From positions 186,930,001 to 186,994,000 of the forward strand of contig OZ024741.1 in NCBI GenBank assembly GCA_964016885.1: a stretch of 64,000 nucleotides of DNA, written 5' to 3'. Both the position numbers and the translations under genes were made by a program. The notes under the pieces were generated by a model. It saw only the letters and a list, made by a program, of their open reading frames with translations. It was not told where the DNA came from and searched no databases. Positions 1,347 to 62,849 of the stretch are shown here, in pieces (position 1 is the stretch's first letter; every line of letters starts with the position of its first letter). Source of the DNA: Eledone cirrhosa (lineage: Eukaryota).

Positions 1347-3705
<2,359 letters not shown>

Positions 3706-3788: not shown

Positions 3789-5131
<1,343 letters not shown>

Positions 5132-8486: not shown

Positions 8487-8642
8487 TTAAGGATAGTATT
8501 TATGGTTATGTATATACTAAAACTTTTTATAGTTATATATATTTTAAACGCTAAACAGTGAAAGACAGTAATTTATTACTACCTTATTACCAGTAAGATA
8601 AATAGCTCAATGTAATAACATCAGTTGTTCTACAGAGCAGTT

Positions 8643-9818
8643 ATATAGAATTCACAGGAATCAAAGCTATGTTGAAAGCATTTATTTGCTTACAATTGTT
8701 TCATCCAAACCGAGGCTTGGATCCTTCGGAGCATTTTTCAATGTTTGTATACATACATGACCTCCTTTCCAACGCAAGAGACATACAGATACATATGTAT
8801 ATATTGATGTACAGTGGGGTGTCATATATTATATTATTTCTGAATGGCAATTTAAATTCAAAAATTAAAATCACATTAAAACAGAATCAAAGCAAAATTA
8901 AAATTAAAATACAACATCAATGCAAATTTAAAATACAATCGGCAGTTAACGTAGTTAATACAAGGGGATAGTTTGTTAGTCAGTTGTAGTAGTTATTGTA
9001 TGCATTAGTTACACGTGTGGCATGCACGTATGTCTTATTTATATATGATTATTGTTCGGCAGGGTATTATATGTAATACAAGCACTTTAAGCGGGTAATC
9101 AAGAGTATTATGGAGGTTGTAGTGGTAGGGTATTTTTTGTATATGATAAAGAAGCTTGTGTGCAGAAAAATAGTATAAATGAGAAGCAAAAAAATGTTAT
9201 GGTTTTTGTATACACCACCATTTTCACATTCAGGAAACGTAATATATAGTTTATATGTCCTTCACATAATTAACGATGATTCCGAATTGGATGTTTAATG
9301 TATTAAGTTAAATTATTATAGCTTGTTGCGGCTCAGTGTTCTTTAATCCAATTTTATAGAGCAGGTTGTTTCTGTTGCGAGAATTTACATCGTTTTATTA
9401 TCCGGAAGTATGTGTGTGATTAAGGGGAGTTAATGAGTGAGGGGAGAAGTAACTAGCTGATTTCTATAATTAAATTTATTATTCCAACATACATTAAAAG
9501 GTGTCTCAATTGAGTCCCTTATATATACGGTTATATACAGTTTCTAAAAATTTAAGTATCCTATCTTTAATTACAGTCTACTTTAATGTGATTTTAATTT
9601 TTGAATTTAAATTGCCATTCAGAAATAATATAATATATGACACCCCACTGTACATCAATATATACATATGTATCTCTATGTCTCTTGCGTTGGAAAGGAG
9701 GTCATGTATGTATACAAACATTGAAAAATGCTCCGAAGGATTCAAGCCTCGGTTTGGATGAAACAATTGTAAGCTAATAAATTCTTTGAACATAGCTTTG
9801 ATTCCTGTGAATTCTATA
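8643..9818. mobile_element. PLE-like remnant with about 240 bp inverted terminal repeats (8643-8882 / 9580-9818), each with a hammerhead-like motif (8688-8732 -, 9730-9774 +)
   Basis: GCT-CCGAAGG-ATCCAAGCC-tc-GGTTTGGAT-GAAAC-AATT-GTA-AGC; arms differ at several positions. Confidence 0.7.
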
Positions 9819-10479
9819 TATATATATATATATAGTTTGTTCAAATGATCTGGGGGTTCTTTTTTTGTTTTGGAGTATTTTTTGCGAACATGCGCACATT
9901 AAAGCTTCACAAACACCAATCAAAAGAATGTCATTTGTTCCTTCTTTGTATGTATAAGGATGTTGGCCGCACGCGTAAACAGAATGATCTTTGTCACTTA
10001 TTTGCAAAGTTCTTATTATTCGAGCGTTATTATTAATTCAATTTAAATCTAAATTGAAAATAAGTCTCTTCAAATTCTCTATAAAGGAACGAAAACTAAG
10101 GTGAACTTGGAAACATATATTTACTTATTCATTTCATACTTAAATCTTTATCTTTTCCGTTTCTTGGCAATATCATTAAAGAAATACACAGGTCACAGTT
10201 TCGAGTTAAATGAAAAGAAAGAATTGAAAAATAGGTGATCGTAATATGGAACCCAGCTTACTTCAAGGTTTTTCTTTTCATTGCTGATACTCTCTGCCAG
10301 GATTTATATCCGACATATATTATCTGCAATGGATAGACAAATGGGAATATTGTTTCCTTAATCCGATTTCACCATCGGCTCTTCTTATTTTAGTTCCTAT
10401 TATTCTTAAGAATAATCAAAATTTGGAGCGATATATAAAAATATCTATTTATTTATATTAATCTAATGTTTAGAATGTA

Positions 10480-15029: not shown

Positions 15030-15220
15030 GGGGCGGTGGATTGGCAGTATCGATAGAGGGTCGGACGCCATGCTTTCCAGCATAGTTACGTCCCTTTACG
15101 ATCTGAGTTCAAATCCCGCCGAGGTTGACTTTGCCTTTCATCCTTACGGGGTCGATAAAATAAAGTACCAGTAATGCACTGGGTATTTGCTGGCCTTGCG
15201 CCTAACGTAGAAACAATTAT
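15030..15220 (+). mobile_element. Nin/Deu-core SINE, full copy
   Basis: Near-identical to 5356-5547. Confidence 0.92.
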
Positions 15221-15467
15221 GTGTCTAAAATATACATATATTATTTCGTTAAAGATGAAATGTTCACGTTGTCTGGACATCTGACTTTCTAAACTGTACG
15301 TAATTTGTCTCCTAACATATAGTTCCCTTTACAAACTAGTGTTACCGGGTTGGATCCCACTGCATTGGACTTTGGGCAAGTAATTCCTGCAACAGCTTCA
15401 GATCACCCAATATCTTTTAACTGAAATTTATTAGACGGGAATTATGTAGAAAGTTGTTGGATATGTG

Positions 15468-15497
<30 letters not shown>

Positions 15498-15500
<3 letters not shown>

Positions 15501-15691
15501 CGAAGGAAATGTGGTAAGGAACCAGGTGGATCATAACGCACCAAAGTACTCAATACTTGAGGTAGTAGAGTGGGTAATAGGAACCAGTAAGACCCCGACA
15601 GCTGAGCTCAAGCCGTTTCGACGGCTAATTCTGGACGCAGAATTAGCCGTCGAAACGGCTTGAGCTCAGCTGTCGGGGTCTTACTGGTTCC

Positions 15692-15694
<3 letters not shown>
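15498..15694. repeat. About 200 bp element ending in a perfect 57-bp-stem hairpin (15577-15633 / 15638-15694); copies at 54108-54304 and truncated 26793-26906
   Basis: Exact reverse-complement arms with a GACG loop; (TA)n on both sides. Confidence 0.92.
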
Positions 15695-15722
<28 letters not shown>

Positions 15723-24499: not shown

Positions 24500-26712
24500 T
24501 GGTATTTAGCTGAGAAAATTGTTTATGCTGAGGATTGGTTACAGATTTGGAGATGTCTTCCTATACTTCATTTTTTTTTTCTTTCGGTTATCTCCTCCCG
24601 TATTAACTTTAATCTACTATGATCTGCTTTTATTCTGTTGTTTAGTATTAGATAGGATGTTGATTAGGTTGTATTTATGTACCTGGCTAAATATTTCTAA
24701 GAAAGTTTTTGAAAATATTGTTTGGTGTTTTTTATTTATATGCTGGGTTCTATAGTATTTTTAAATGTAATTTGAGGATTTTTAATGTATATGCAGGTTC
24801 TTTCAGCTTTGTTTTTTTGTCTCATAAATCTACTTACATTCGCAAATGTGCTCTCTGTTATATTTTTCTCTATATATTTATTTGCTTTTTCTTCATGCCT
24901 CATATGTTTCATTTCGAGTGCTATTATGTTTGATATAGTTTTCATATTAAATAGGCAACAGTTCTATGTAGAAATCATTTCTGATATCATTGTTGACGCT
25001 GGTATTAAGAGACGGGCCTTTGTGTTTGGACTTACACATTTGAGAATACATTGATTATAAAATATGTTCCACTATTCCCGTATTGTAATCGTAGTAAGCT
25101 CTCGCTACGAACTTCCTTACACATGAAGATAATGGATTCATTGTAAAATAACGTTGGATTTATTTGCAATGTTCATTCGTTTCCCTTTCAATGTTTTGAC
25201 AGTTTGTTTCCCTCTGTTGTTTATGTTCAAACGTTCATTTCGTTTTATTTAATTTATGTATTTCATATTTTCTTATTTTCGCATGTATATATATTATTTA
25301 AACAATATATTTTATGTGTGGTAATCATATATACGTATAATATGTATAAGTTGTATTTGCTTTGGTAGATCTGTTTTGTTTTGTTTCTATTCAATAGTTA
25401 ATTTCGCATGTAAGGAGGCAAATGTCCGCTATTCTACAAGTTACAGTTATTTCGCAGATTTTTAACCCTATTCGTACACACATTATTATCTACATTAAAG
25501 TTACTAGTATAATTGTGCCTATTATTTACTGTTTGGTTTAGAATAGATGTTATTTGCTTTCGTTTATATGAGTTCATTTCCTTATAATCGTTTATAGCTA
25601 AATATTCTGCCAAGTTAGGTGTGGTCAAGAAAGAAAGTTTAACGTTATTTTTGTTTATTATACTATAGCACTTATGCCCTTGGGCAAACATTTTTCTAAA
25701 CTACTATAGAATATTCTAGGTATATGGGACGCTACTTGAACACCATATGGAGGAATAAACGATATTTTTCTTTTATTCTTTTTTCTATTATTCAATTGAT
25801 TAGGGGAATTATAGATAGTCATAAGATTTTGGGGTGTGTTCATATACATTTTTTATTAAAATTATAGTTTTTTCGATTATTGTTCTTATTTCTACTGTTT
25901 ATCCTATCATTATTTCTGTATTAGTCTTGAGGTGGTTGGTTCTATTCACATTATGATAATTAGGTGTAGATGTACGTTTATGGGTAAAGATTCTATTGTT
26001 AGCTAATTACGATATGGTGTTAAACAGTATTCTATCATTATATCCTGATCTAGCCAAAGCTACATTATAATAAGTAGCATTTGGGGATTAGATTTCTTTA
26101 TTGGCTGAGAATCTCTGGCTGATATGTTATTCACTATAGATTTAATGATCGATGATTGGAATTTTTATGTACGTAATAAAGGAATTCTCTGGTGTGAATA
26201 TGTTGGTGTTTAAAATCTAGTGTAACGACTAAGACGCTAACTACCTTTGTGTTATTTTCTACTGTTATGTCTACGTTATAATTGTTTCTACGTTAGGCAC
26301 AAGGCCAGCAATTACCCAGCAATTACCCAGCAATTACGTTATAATGTTTAAAGAAGTGTTCTCCAAACTTTTGAAAGTGAAGAGCCCATCGTCTCTACAT
26401 ATACCAACACCGATAGTAATGTAATCTTTTTTTAATTCATTAATGAGAAATAGGCCTACGAGATCGATTATTTGGTCTGAATTTCATCGAGCCCATCGGA
26501 ATGTCAAGGTTGTTCGTACAGTTTTTCTCTAGTCCAGAGGCTTCCGGTAAATGCTATGATAGTACGCCTGGCTGCTAATATTATATCTACTTCCAATTTT
26601 GTAATGTTAGTATAGTCTATTGCCATAGAAAGTGGTTCGTTCAGAAGACTAGATGAAATGGAGGAATAATATTTATATCAAACTGTAGAAATTATCTTAT
26701 TTCTTTTATCCA
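24500..26712 (-). mobile_element. Decayed Neptune/Nematis-like PLE: RT, linker and endonuclease remnants
   Basis: YYSSISSSLL, GICRDDGL (cf. GLYRDDGL), YYNVALARSGY, FIPPYGVQVASHIPRIF, GHKCYSIINKNNVKLSFLTTPN; many stops and frameshifts. Confidence 0.85.
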
Positions 26713-26747
26713 AATTAACGAAGCATTGAATATGTTAGTGTTGCCCC

Positions 26748-26795
<48 letters not shown>

Positions 26796-27189
26796 CGAAG
26801 GAGTCGTGGTAAGGAACCAGATGGACCATAATGCATCAGAGTACTCAATACTTAGGGTAGTAGAGTGGGTAATAGGAGAAAGTATGACCCCGACGGCAGA
26901 GCTCAATTTCACTATATATATGTATATGGAAGATCACTGATGAAGGACTAATTTAATATATATATATACATATATAAAATATATACAGTATTTTCCGTAG
27001 TGTTGTAATATAAATATTACACACAGTAGATGGACAGCTCACGTAGAGTTTGCTCGACGGTTCCAGTTGTAGTTCCAAAAGTAATCCGGAGAAAAATAGA
27101 AAGATTTGAATGGATACAGTTTAGTTAAAAGGAATATATATATGTTTGATGTGTATAGTTAGATGTAAGTGTATTCATGTATTAAAGTG

Positions 27190-33890: not shown

Positions 33891-33944
<54 letters not shown>

Positions 33945-34458
33945 ATCAGGAAAGAAAGTTTACATGGTTTGCTATACAAAAAAGTTTTTAATCACATAGC
34001 TTACATTTGTTTCACTGAACTGGTCTGTCTAGAGATCGCTATCCGCCTAATTTTGCGTCACTCGATCGCCAATACAGAATTATAACCAGTCAGATCTTCG
34101 GCGCATGCGAGAATGAAGAAAATACACAGGCAAGAAAAGAAAATATGGAGTAGTTATGGCATTCAATTAGAACAATAACAACAACAATTATTACAACAAT
34201 GCTATCAATAAACTATTTAAGGAGACCCTGACATTACTTAGGTGGGGGGTATATAATGTATCTATTGTTACGGCGTGAAAACCAGCTGTCATAAGGCAAA
34301 AAGTATCGTAGTGTGTATCAATTTTAAATTATAAAGATAAGCTAGTTTTTACAGTCTTTCTCTTCATCTTCAACAGTATACATGAGTGGGACCACTGTCA
34401 AAGCTCAATAGTTGCAGAGTTAATACAGAGGTTAACGAATTAATATACGCATATATCT

Positions 34459-34511
<53 letters not shown>

Positions 34512-35543
34512 AATATATATACACATATATGTGTACATAGACACATACATACACATCAATATACACTCGTACAAAAATATACATACATGCAAAGAGAAAA
34601 GCGTGCTAGTTGTAATTATGGCAAAAAGAAGGTAAAGTAACATTGTAGTAGTGAAAAACTAGGATCTAGGATCAAATGATTGCAGCAGCTGAGAAGGAGT
34701 AAGATTGTTGGTAGATGAGGTATTTACAGACAATTGTGTGGTATAGATTTGTGAAGGAAATAGTATACTTAATGAATATATTTCTGTGGGTAGTAGGTAT
34801 CCTAATTTAAAGCTATGTTATGTTGGTTCGATTCACGGAGGTTTGAATCTTATGAATTTAGTGGCTATTCTATGTCTGCAGAAGATAGATCTTTCTAACT
34901 TATTATTAAGTAGCCTTTTAACATTTCTAAGGATATACAATAGCTCAAGATCACACAGCCCGCAATAGGACATCCCTGTACTATAGGTTTTAGCAGCCGA
35001 CAACTTCGACCAGTTGATAGTGTAGCTAGCGTTGCTGTCCTTCAATTCCCATATTTTTCTGGCGAGGGTGGTGGAACCCATAAGTGCTCGGTTTTTCATG
35101 TATACTGTTGAAGATGAAGAGAAAGACTGTAAAAACTAGCTTATCTTTATAATTTAAAATTGATACACACTACGATACTTTTTGCCTTATGACAGCTGGT
35201 TTTCACGCCGTAACATTAGATACATTATATACCCCCCACCTAAGTAATGTCAGGGTCTCCTTAAATAGTTTATTGATAGCATTGTTGTAATAATTGTTGT
35301 TGTTATTGTTCTAATTGAATGCCATAACTACTCCATATTTTCTTTTCTTTTCTTGCCTGTGTATTTTCTTCATTCTCGCATGCTCCGAAGATCTGACTGG
35401 TTATAATTCTGTATTGGCGATCGAGTGACGCAAAATTAGGCGGATAGCGATCTCTAGACATACCAGTTCAGTGAAACAAATGTAAGTTATGTGATTAAAA
35501 ACTTTTTTGTATAGCAAACCATGTAAACTTTCTTTCCTGATTT
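33945..35543 (-). mobile_element. 5'-truncated PLE: endonuclease C-terminus between about 440 bp inverted repeats (33945-34384 / 35097-35543), each with a U4C hammerhead (33999-34104 -, 35382-35487 +)
   Basis: ORF 34833-35099 TTLARKIWELK...YTINW...YCGLCDLE...LLNNKLE...CRH; motif GCT-CCGAAGA-T-CTGACTGGT...ACCAGTTCAG-T-GAAAC-AAAT-GTA-AG(C/T). Confidence 0.88.
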
Positions 35544-36358
35544 ATTATTACTCCAAGTGTTTACAACATAGGAATTACAGCATACCCGCAGCATCACTAT
35601 GAAAACGCCTTGTTGAGTCAAACCAAGCCAAGCGTTAATATCATCCACTACCTGGAATACCATAACTGGACTTCACCTAAGTGGACTGCATTTAACTATT
35701 ATTTGTTAATCCGTATATATATATATATATATATATAGTAATTAAAGTTTAAATAGTCACTAATACCCAATCATCTCAATATATATAAATGAAAAATATA
35801 TATCTATATATATCTTTGTTCAATTGGCAATAAACGTAGAGGCTCGGACAAATGCATTTAGTTCTATGTCCTGAGATCTGATCCGCCAAAGAAAACTTTG
35901 CCATTCATTTCTCCGGAGTAAAAAAAAATAAAATACCAGTAAATTATTGGTGTCGATATAATCGACTTTTTCCTCCCCGAAAATCGCTGGCCCTTAGCTT
36001 AAATTAGAATTCATTCTTTAGGGCAGTAGATTCGTTATTTTGCGTTATATATTTCAGCTTTATATATTCTGAGTTCAAATAATGTATCACGTTGAATCTC
36101 TCTGAGAACTACGTCAAAGATACACGTGGCTATTGATTGCTCGACCGCTTGCACGTTACGTTTAAGGGCAGGTTTTGTCTTGATCGAATCAAGCGGTATA
36201 TTTGCCACCGTTACCTACAGATATCAATCGCACGATTAGATAAGATGCATACACAGACACACAGACGCACAGACAGAGACACACAGACAGAGACACACAG
36301 ACAGAGACACACAGACATACACACACACACACACACAGACAGACACACACACACACAC

Positions 36359-53872: not shown

Positions 53873-54012
53873 CATAGAGTTACGGTCCTTGCCATTCTGA
53901 GTTCAAATCCCGCCGAGGTTTACTTTGCCTTTCATCCTTACGGGGTCGATAAAATAAAGTACCAGTAATGCACTGGGTAATTGCTGGCCTTGGCCAAAAG
54001 TAGAAACAATTA
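53873..54012 (+). mobile_element. Nin/Deu-core SINE, 5'-truncated
   Basis: B-box, core and tail. Confidence 0.88.
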
Positions 54013-54317
54013 TATTTAACTTTATGTCGTTTCTGTAGTTATAATAATATTATAAACGATAAGGATGTATACTTATGTATATCTTATATATATATATATA
54101 TATATATATAACGAAGGAAATATGGTAAGGAACCAGATGGACAATAACGCACCAAAGTACTCAATACTTAGGGTAGTAGAGTGGGTAGTAGGAACGAGTA
54201 GGACCCCGACGGCTGAGCTCAAACCGTTTCGACGGCTAATTCTAGACGCAGAGTGAGCCGTCGAAACGGCTTGAGCTCAGCCGTCGGAGTCCTACTCGTT
54301 CCTATATATATATATAT

Positions 54318-55668
54318 AGTTTTGCGAGGTTTTTGATATGAAATCGTGTGTCGAAACAAATATTGTTATACTTGGGGAGGGTCATATTTGTGTAATATTG
54401 CCAGAATTAATAACAGAACACACTCACTGTTTGGTTGGTTTTCGCTTTTCGCCTCTGTGTCTTTTATATCGGTAATCTAATTTATTCGGTCCTCAATGTT
54501 GCCATTGACTGACCAACAGTTAAAAATAATACAGATACAATATAGACACAAACACATATATATAGTTTATCAAAGTTCTTTCGTTGCACATCTGCAACAT
54601 TGTCAGTGGTGCTATTGTTTCCTCCCGTTGCATTGTATTTTCTACGCCATCTTTATTTAGTCTGTTTATATATTTATTTATTTGTTTATTTTATTTTGTC
54701 TTCATTGCGCATGCGTTTGCGTGTGTCTATAGTGTTTTGTTTGATATGTGTTCGTGATTGGGTGACTGTGTATTGGTAAATGTATTCTATTTTTACTAGT
54801 GTGTGTTTATATGTGTTTGTTGTTATTGTGCTTGTGTATGTATTTATTTATTTATTTATCTATTTATTTATACTTCTCTTAGGTCAGTGTTGTTTGTTTG
54901 GGTGTTGTTGTTATTCTATTCATTCTTTCTGTTTAGTCTTGACCTTCTAAGTTCTATTTCAGTACTATACGAACATGCCAGACAACAACACGACGGTAAC
55001 ATAGACAACATAGAAATTAGAATAATATCTAAACATAGAAATGACCCAGCAGATAGGCAAATCAGAGAGACCAGTGAAATACAACTTAGAAGGCCAAGGC
55101 TAAACAGAAAGAATGAATGGAATAACAACAACACCCAAACAAACAACACTGATCTAAGAGAAGTATAAATAAATAGATAAATAAATAAATAAATACATAC
55201 GCAAGCACAATAACAACAAACACATATAAACACACACTAGTAAAGATAGAATACATTAACCAATACACAGACACCCAATCACGAACACATATCAAACAAA
55301 ACACTATACACACACGCAAACGCATGCGCAAAGAAGACAAAATAAAATAAACAAATAAATAAATATATAAACAGACTAAATAAAGATGGCGTAGAAAGTA
55401 TAATGCAACAGGAGGAAACAATAGCACCACTGACGATGTTGCAGATGTGCAACGAAAGAACTTTGATAAACTATATATATGTGTTTGTGTCTATATTGTA
55501 TCTGTATTATTTTTGACCGTTGGTCAGTCAATGGCAACATTGAGGACCGAATAAATTAGATTACCGATATAAAAGACACAGAAGCGAAAAGCGAAAACCA
55601 ACCAAACAGTGAGTGTGTTCTGTTATTAATTCTGGCAATATTACACAAATATGACCCTCCCCAAGTAT

Positions 55669-55675
<7 letters not shown>
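54318..55675 (+). mobile_element. 5'-truncated PLE fold-back: about 600 bp inverted arms (54361-54961 / 55075-55675) around the endonuclease C-terminus
   Basis: Spacer encodes LYEHARQQH...IRIISKHRNDPADRQIRETSEIQLRRPRLNRKNEW. Confidence 0.9.
55426..55467 (+). ncRNA. Minimal type I hammerhead with intact core; the mirror copy near 54569-54610 has G8A
   Basis: ACCA-CTGACGA-T-GTTGCA-gatg-TGCAAC-GAAA-GAAC-TT-TGAT. Confidence 0.82.
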
Positions 55676-55720
<45 letters not shown>

Positions 55721-61996: not shown

Positions 61997-62084
61997 AGGA
62001 AAGTTATATTTAAATTGTTGGGTTAACAACGAGTAAATATTTATAACTGATATAAAAGCACTCAACAAGTATTTGGAGTATATT

Positions 62085-62448
62085 TATGATATTAAATACA
62101 TGGAAACTATATTTATAAAACCATATTTATTTCGTTATATATATTTCAGGGATATCATATTAACAATATGTTATGCCATCTTCAGACAAAATACAATATA
62201 AACAGTCTTATAAATAAATAGATACGACATACCTTTCAATCACCTTGCATTTGTGAGGTTGACTGCCAAATCAACCTCACAAATGCAAGGTGATTGAAAG
62301 GTATGTCGTATCTATTTATTTATAAGACTGTTTATATTGTATTTTGTCTGAAGATGGCATAACATATTGTTAATATGATATCCCTGAAATATATATAACG
62401 AAATAAATATGGTTTTATAAATATAGTTTCCATGTATTTAATATCATA
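62085..62448. repeat. Palindrome with 178-bp arms and an 8-nt loop carrying mirrored hammerheads (62342-62403 +, 62130-62191 -)
   Basis: TTTTGT-CTGAAGA-T-GG...CC-T-GAAA-TATAT-ATA-ACGAAA; the arms appear exact. Confidence 0.9.
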
Positions 62449-62849
62449 TATTTATATATATATATATATATATATATGGTGGCTGCCAACTCGTTTTCGA
62501 GTATGGCCACTACTTTATATCCATGTAGGAGAACCCCTACCGATGTGCTGAACGAGTGTGACTTTTTAGTCCAGCCAGCGACTTGAAAACTCTGGTACAA
62601 ACACTACACTTGTGACAATTATTGACACATAGTGCTGGGCCCATGGTACCATGTGACGATAAGTTCAGAGAGATCTCCAAATATAAAGCAATGCCTGTGC
62701 CGTGAAGCTTTTATAGTGAGCAAAGGCACTGCACAAAGCCAGTCCCACTCTCTTAACCAAGATGATATTTACCAAAAAGAAGAACAAGTCAACATCATTG
62801 GATACCATCAGGATTGCAGGTGTTATATCAGAATTTTCCTTCTCCTAGA

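What the first reader, a model, noticed from the sequence alone, without database searches (positions are those of the whole stretch)
15498..15694. Hairpin-terminated mini-element whose two arms change together between copies
Seen: a 57-bp perfect stem with GACG loop. The copy at 54189-54304 differs at three left-arm positions (ggaacC/G, gtaA/G, gacA/G) and all three are mirrored in its right arm. Both copies share the same pivot and end at CCTAT-(TA)n. Next to the pivot the sequence reads helix-GAAACGG, like the 3' half of a hammerhead. Inference: the short arm is made anew at each insertion by cDNA fold-back self-priming on a pre-existing stem (possibly helix II), or the arms are homogenised or selected as a dsRNA hairpin (Dicer/ADAR substrate).
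Basis: partly seen in the sequence, partly recalled or inferred. Interest (0 to 1): 0.7.

Follow-up and report, generated by a model that had tools for sequence, protein, structure and literature searches.

The report
Two-ended Penelope retrotransposon stub
This hairpin is one of more than fifteen thousand head-to-head stubs of a Penelope-type jumping gene in this animal genome; its two arms match because both were likely copied from the same RNA, one from each side of a cut TA repeat, which would explain how this class builds its mirror-image ends.

Summary
The 57-bp stem is real. The three mirrored changes mark subfamilies; the second copy also has six unmirrored ones. The element is the RNA-start piece of a 3.6-kb Hydra-clade Penelope-like element (RT plus C-terminal GIY-YIG). 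The genome holds at least 15,246 such hairpins and ORF-bearing copies with the same two ends. The pivot is not fixed (61 junctions in 88 copies) but clusters at a TYAGT motif, a likely transcription start. The parent's hammerhead has a U3-A8 core, not CTGANGA. Arms share subfamily alleles (7,786 concordant, 32 discordant) but not private changes, so they are identical at birth and not homogenised. Fold-back fits poorly: either arm may reach further 5' (22 vs 23), both carry untemplated A-runs (365 vs 389), and in 7 of 100 copies the arms do not overlap. Over 99% of inserts pair one tailed end with one tail-less end. Best reading: two cDNAs primed from both target strands at two coupled start sites, joined at the RNA 5' end. 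The architecture is published; I found this mechanism in no paper, but the scan reached it before on other DNA.

The parts
15471..15499 (.). (TA)n target, left side
   Evidence: sequence
15500..15576 (-). 77-nt 'tail' (+62 to +138 of the element RNA), present on one arm only; its end CCTTCGT is the inferred downstream RT start site; in full copies it runs on into about 100 nt of leader and the ORF start
   Evidence: 20,512 exact tail-end-plus-TATATA matches
15548..15571 (-). small bulged hairpin (ACTC..GAGT) 5-6 nt past the upstream end point; a similar one follows the downstream end point in full copies
   Evidence: predicted folds, (z -0.6 here, -2.1 for the second; not formed in one other copy); lead from earlier notes
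15577..15636 (-). tailed arm, +2 to +61 of the element RNA
   Evidence: BLAST against a full copy ends at 15636
15592..15630 (-). 3' half of a type I hammerhead motif (helix II 3' strand, GAAA, helix III with GAGCTC palindrome, GUC, helix I 3' strand); the 5' half is absent, so this copy is predicted not to cleave
15637..15637 (.). junction base not templated by the parent (the parent has A at +1 here)
   Evidence: comparison with long copies
15638..15694 (+). tail-less inverted arm, +5 to +61, ending at CCTAT, the inferred upstream RT start site
15695..15712 (.). (TA)n target, right side
   Evidence: sequence
54111..54305 (-). second copy, subfamily B; 3 subfamily changes in both arms, 6 changes in one arm only

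Best explanation
The element is a head-to-head pair of short pieces from the pseudo-LTR of a Hydra-type Penelope-like retrotransposon, likely laid down in one event in which the element's enzyme cut both strands of a (TA)n repeat and reverse-transcribed the same RNA from both DNA ends. Shown: parent element, two fixed outer end points 77 nt apart, one tail per insert, variable inner junction, arm identity at birth. Inferred: one end primes at +61 (CCTAT), the other at +138 (CCTTCGT); both cDNAs run off the RNA 5' end at the A of TYAGT (a likely transcription start lying in the loop of hammerhead helix II), often gain untemplated A's, and are joined end to end by host repair using short palindromic microhomologies. 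The stub lacks the upstream promoter region and the 5' half of the ribozyme and is likely dead on arrival. The 'co-changing' sites are alleles of the source subfamily, copied twice.
For: Parent: long copies continue upstream into a 1.3-kb non-coding region and an RT-GIY-YIG ORF, and downstream of the tail into the ORF start; L151 has the same two ends on a 5.8-kb insert. Coupled ends: 24 tail-less/tail-less among 3,581 subfamily-A hairpins; 43 tail/tail against 15,246 asymmetric (patterns differ, so the ratio is approximate). Both arms behave as RT products: +2 is reached by the tail-less arm only in 22, the tailed arm only in 23, both in 24, neither in 19 of 88; runs of 5 or more A at +1 on the tail-less arm 365, on the tailed arm 389, and in about 17 and 21 of the 100 listed rows (counted by eye) the other arm stops short of +1; in 7 of 100 tail-anchored copies the tailed arm is too short to overlap the inverted arm. 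32 hairpins carry A alleles on one arm and B on the other; hand estimate rates is about 1 by double mutation. A sister family with a different loop turns at the same TTAGT register. A Poseidon PLE protein cleaves and extends both strands in vitro, starts at two internal sites that bound the tail, and is predicted to be a dimer (PMC11167929).
Against: No RNA data on the 5' end could be had. A cap-templated base was not demonstrable (next base mostly A). The TATA-like word 29 nt upstream is not kept in older subfamilies or the sister family. Central deletion of palindromes after insertion could create part of the junction variety and the non-overlapping cases. Some chimeras are patchy (L194, L195: B sites with an A tail), as gene conversion would give. 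In long copies L229, L233, L236, L239 the inverted arm lies within the direct arm, so these do not discriminate. 36 of 100 tail-anchored copies had no inverted arm called. One RNA versus two RNAs from one source locus cannot be told apart. Arm extents are noisy where copies are diverged.
Confidence: 0.75

Rival explanations
1. Fold-back self-priming: one cDNA (or an antisense RNA) turns back on itself and copies its own 5' part; later central deletions vary the junction.
For: Head-to-head palindromic junctions of PLEs were interpreted as self-priming on an antisense template (PMC3846280). It gives arm identity directly; junctions often sit on palindromes (AATT, TCGA, AGCT).
Against: The copied arm cannot exceed or miss its template: 22 vs 23 reciprocal junctions, 7 non-overlapping copies and L132, L298, L325 with much longer tail-less arms; untemplated A-runs on the tail-less arm with a truncated tailed arm; 0 helix-II fold-back junctions; 32 chimeras.
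Confidence: 0.08
2. Two-ended copying is right, but the pivot is an RT pause or an RNA break in hammerhead loop II rather than the transcription start.
For: The pivot lies in the 3' part of loop II; ends scatter from about +9 to -4; no conserved TATA; no cap signature.
Against: Untemplated A-runs begin exactly at +1 in 754 matches; the TYAGT word is kept where the rest of the loop diverged; the predicted ribozyme cut is at +41, not at the pivot.
Confidence: 0.12
3. A non-autonomous hairpin master whose RNA already holds both arms is amplified whole.
For: 11 of the 30 nearest copies share this exact junction (chosen by likeness to the query).
Against: 61 junctions in 88 unbiased copies, none above 6; the same junction occurs in subfamilies A and B; continuum up to ORF-bearing inserts.
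Confidence: 0.03
4. Arms are kept alike by gene conversion or by selection for a dsRNA hairpin (Dicer or ADAR substrate).
For: Subfamily alleles are in both arms in 300 of 323 cases. Transcribed copies would form dsRNA as a by-product.
Against: Rare changes are in one arm in 333 of 362 cases; the second window copy has 6 unmirrored changes.
Confidence: 0.02

Closest known systems
Insertion units of endonuclease-bearing Penelope-like elements: inverted 5'-truncated copy plus one-sided tail (PMC8557442, passages; PMC3846280, passages and Discussion)
   Same: Head-to-head inverted pLTR pieces, tail at one end only, microsatellite target, partial tandems in long copies.
   Different: Tail is 77 nt (published 30-40 bp); most inserts are pLTR-only stubs; the counts here favour two-ended copying over the published self-priming or endonuclease-resolution readings.
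Hydra clade of C-terminal EN+ PLEs, e.g. Hydra-1_Obim (PMC8557442 section 11 and supplement passages)
   Same: DKT, RW[K/R], CxCx5C linker, no CCHH, CxxC and CxH around E and N, (TA)n target; collinear protein by eye.
   Different: A different family by eye: unit about 3.6 kb (published generally under 3 kb), hammerhead core U3-A8 and not canonical, large helices II and III.
PAc (Poseidon of Anolis carolinensis) in vitro (PMC11167929, parts 1-2 of 4 read)
   Same: Two internal RT start sites bounding the tail, both strands cut and extended, ribozyme cleavage not needed.
   Different: Start sites here lie in the leader before the ORF and share TAT with the target; that paper reports no strand difference in start site and does not explain inverted copies.
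U3-A8 hammerheads of Cercyon PLEs in Schistosoma mansoni (PMC4209133, part 1 of 4 and passages)
   Same: U3-A8 core; dual motifs on opposite strands 100-700 bp apart.
   Different: Not a minimal motif: 5-bp helix III with a palindromic loop and a 33-nt loop II.
L1 twin priming (recalled, no call)
   Same: Two cDNAs primed from the two target strands give an inversion.
   Different: In L1 the second primer anneals at a variable internal site and the two cDNAs do not overlap; here both sites are fixed and the cDNAs overlap.

Membership tests
EN+ Penelope-like element | Single ORF with RT and GIY-YIG endonuclease | tested here: met
   YRDD, VIY...YIG and collinearity with Hydra proteins. Pfam gave 0 hits and PDB nothing under E 0.7, so this rests on motifs and by-eye comparison; none of 20 long copies had an unbroken ORF.
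EN+ Penelope-like element | pLTR-ORF-pLTR partial tandem, inverted truncated copy, one-sided tail | tested here: met
EN+ Penelope-like element | RT phylogeny within PLEs | not tested
   no tree built
Hydra clade | C-terminal EN; DKT; CxCx5C linker; no CCHH; CxxC and CxH around E and N | tested here: met
   (HSDKTG, CNCPDRSSC, CNLCSEE, NKKDELVTACKH)
Hydra clade | RWK motif | tested here: inconclusive
   RWR at the same place: conservative variant
Hydra clade | (TA)n insertion | tested here: met
Hydra clade | Canonical hammerhead in the pLTR | tested here: not met
   no CTGANGA in 5 units; U3-A8 variant instead
Naiad clade | N-terminal EN with CCHH | tested here: not met
   EN is C-terminal, no CCHH
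Type I hammerhead (parent) | Core boxes with a 3-8 pair, G10.1-C11.1, three helices, UH | tested here: met
   TTGANAA in 75 of 87 arms, N7 free; 7,448 matches against 100 control; MFE has the topology, though z 0.03; 93.5% of cells paired, 3 double-sided changes, all in helix II and mostly from the sister-family split
Type I hammerhead (parent) | Self-cleavage | not testable with these tools
   subfamily B has C3 with A8, predicted impaired
Type I hammerhead (this stub) | 5' core box and helix I/II 5' strands | tested here: not met
   stub starts at +2, downstream of them
Non-LTR retrozyme | Tandem direct repeats each with a whole hammerhead | tested here: not met
   inverted pair, half motif; definition from 10.64898/2026.07.22.740005 part 1 of 5

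The most novel reading that the evidence does not exclude
Hydra-type Penelope elements insert by obligate two-ended reverse transcription: one RNA, two fixed start sites 77 nt apart, each assigned to one strand of the cut target, with both cDNAs running to the capped 5' end. Inverted ends, the one-sided tail and the mass of tiny hairpins all follow from this one rule, a TPRT mode with no separate second-strand synthesis step.
Probability: 0.55. Interest if true: 0.65.

Novelty: new member of a known kind. Interest (0 to 1): 0.42.

Why it matters
The object is an ordinary dead stub. Its family statistics bear on a question that PMC8557442 names as open, how PLEs form tandem and inverted structures, and they argue against the published self-priming reading (PMC3846280). 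The over-99% pairing of one tailed with one tail-less end is a sharp prediction for the existing in vitro assay. Thousands of near-perfect hairpins are also a potential source of dsRNA and of DNA fragility in this genome (not tested).

Tried and rejected
Rfam scan of the window: no hammerhead among the 150 listed of 209 rows; only sub-threshold miRNA matches to repeats and to the stem. CTGANGA parent: not found. My first guess, Naiad, was dropped when the ORF showed a C-terminal EN. Pfam and PDB sequence search did not recognise the protein; the Atlas gave no result. Sequencing runs: no RNA holder listed; no reads were laid. Cap-G test: inconclusive. One search used a structure string with helix I off by one; one search is the corrected count. 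arm calls were disturbed by a TA run in the references and were redone, where L131 (a tail-start inversion) was miscalled and is left out of the 7 non-overlapping copies. Loci L001-L060 were chosen by likeness to whole copies and were left out of junction and concordance counts. Sequence look-up in earlier findings gave nothing. Literature searches for the two-ended mechanism; none of the listings or passages read states it; papers outside the library and bioRxiv supplements were not seen.

Full report
Observation. The stem is 57 perfect pairs (15577-15633 with 15638-15694) around GACG. The copy at 54111-54305 has the three mirrored changes, and also three changes only in its left arm and three only in its right. 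A third, truncated copy lies at 26793-26906. The window is in a 3.0-Gb genome, where the last 24 nt of the element plus TATATA occur 20,512 times and the asymmetric hairpin pattern 15,246 times, control 0. The element's sense strand is the window's minus strand. I number it from +1, the A of TYAGTCC; CCTAT ends at +61 and CCTTCGT at +138.

What it is. Some copies continue upstream of +1. L151 is a 5.8-kb insert in (TA)n: a 2.3-kb inverted arm starting at CCTAT, and a 3.4-kb direct arm with RT and GIY-YIG coding pieces, 1.3 kb of non-coding DNA, the hairpin sequence and the tail. In fuller copies the tail runs on into about 100 nt of leader and an ATG, and the hairpin region recurs 3.6 kb downstream. 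The protein has RWR, DKT, YRDD, CxCx5C, VIY..YIG without CCHH, CxxC and CxH, the diagnostic set of the Hydra clade (PMC8557442 section 11), and is collinear by eye with Hydra-1_Obim in that paper's supplement without being that family. Pfam and PDB searches did not recognise it. The finding is therefore a pLTR-only stub of a Hydra-type Penelope-like element.

The hammerhead. No CTGANGA parent exists. The parent reads ACCCC-TTGANAA-helix II-GAAA-helix III-TC-GGGGT: 75 of 87 arms have TTGANAA with N free, 9 have CTGANAA, 3 other; the pattern has 7,448 matches against 100 in the control. The minimum-energy fold has type I topology but is no more stable than shuffles. Across 17 arms, five from a sister family, 93.5% of cells pair and three helix II pairs change on both sides; these are few events. 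U3-A8 is a published PLE variant (PMC4209133). The stubs start in loop II and hold only the 3' half. Subfamily B has C3 opposite A8 yet left at least 4,205 hairpins, in line with cleavage being dispensable in vitro (PMC11167929).

Why the arms change together. Genome-wide, both arms are type A in 3,581 hairpins, both type B in 4,205, and mixed in 32. In 180 hairpins with both arms ungapped, common alleles were in both arms 300 times and in one 23 times; rare alleles in both 29 times and in one 333 times (some of the 29 are pivot artefacts or older subfamilies). The arms are thus identical at birth and decay separately. Subfamilies active at different times would give high concordance by themselves, so concordance does not prove one RNA molecule.

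How the second arm is made. The junction is new each time: 61 forms in 88 copies. Fold-back needs the copied arm to lie inside its template, and only the tailed arm can be the template in a stub. Instead, +2 is reached by the tail-less arm alone in 22, the tailed arm alone in 23, both in 24, neither in 19. Among 100 tail-anchored copies 64 had an inverted arm called; it reached at least 3 nt further 5' in 23, less far in 13, within 2 nt in 27, 1 ambiguous, and in 7 the tailed arm was too short to overlap it. Runs of five or more A begin at +1 on the tail-less arm in 365 places and on the tailed arm in 389; orientation was confirmed for 25 of 30 and 22 of 30 fetched loci, the rest mostly unclassified. 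Both arms therefore look like reverse transcripts that ran off a template end. No junction retained loop II as priming on helix II would require. The 32 chimeras exceed a hand estimate of about 1; L197, L203 and L218 switch at three sites, L194 and L195 are patchy.

The ends are coupled. Only 24 of 3,581 type A hairpins lack a tail on both sides, and 43 have it on both, against 15,246 asymmetric. Independent choice of site would give a quarter of each symmetric class if the sites were equal. Among the long copies whose two ends could be read, L151, L226 and L232 have the tail on the ORF arm, L229, L233, L236 and L239 on the inverted arm, and L230 on both. A small bulged hairpin is predicted 5-6 nt past each end point; I looked for it because earlier notes named it, and my support is weak.

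Mechanism. Inferred: the protein, perhaps a dimer, cuts both strands of (TA)n; one end primes at +61 and the other at +138 of one RNA; near the RNA's 5' end both cDNAs are short, end at +1, and are joined by end-joining. Initiation at the downstream pLTR of a longer transcript gives the long forms. That +1 is a transcription start rests on the clustering, the A-runs and a TYAGT word that resembles an initiator (recalled consensus) and is kept in the sister family; no RNA data were available. In vitro, a Poseidon protein extends both strands from two internal sites that bound the tail (PMC11167929).

Known and new. The architecture is published (PMC8557442; PMC3846280), with self-priming or endonuclease resolution as explanations. 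I found no paper stating the coupled two-ended reading. Verdict: real, a new family member of a known kind, of moderate interest for the mechanism its statistics make testable.

Noticed in passing
window 54306-55676: Another fold-back insert in (TA)n directly beside the second copy: 602-nt arms, 97% complementary, left arm about 45 nt longer at its outer end, with a CTGACGA..GAAA motif at 55430.
   Followed up: partly
window 33941-35545: Nearly perfect inverted arms around a piece that codes for a related endonuclease end (39% over 87 aa to the parent protein): another PLE family with the same layout.
   Followed up: partly
window 25545-26731: Decayed relic of a related Hydra-type ORF (30-43% identity in four pieces); the third copy lies next to its upstream end.
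   Followed up: partly
window 62079-62454, 8642-9820, 3954-4239, 1501-3672: Further inverted pairs bordered by (TA)n with unequal outer ends, probably stubs of other families.
   Followed up: no
window 6733, 29853, 29919, 33065 (-), 41480 (-): Canonical CTGANGA...GAAA motifs of unrelated repeats; 29853 and 29919 lie in tandem; only 41480 passed my helix check.
   Followed up: partly
window about 15050-15230 and 53880-54010: Both copies lie 100-270 bp from a copy of one short repeat with a tRNA-like box; likely an abundant SINE (label recalled), likely coincidence.
   Followed up: no
L061, L079, L087: Three loci where an arm of this family is joined near +1 to the same unrelated repeat sequence: possible joining with another family's cDNA.
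   Followed up: no
L323, L123: The tailed arm reaches +1 and is preceded by another part of the element in the same orientation (ORF start plus a T-run in L323): looks like a template jump from the RNA 5' end, a possible origin of partial tandems.
   Followed up: no
window 15634-15638 and 5 of 88 junctions: A recurrent GC in place of the +1 base (GCGTCC) in subfamilies A and B; origin unexplained.
   Followed up: partly
L063, L207, L217: Copies inserted into the (TA)n flank of another copy.
   Followed up: no
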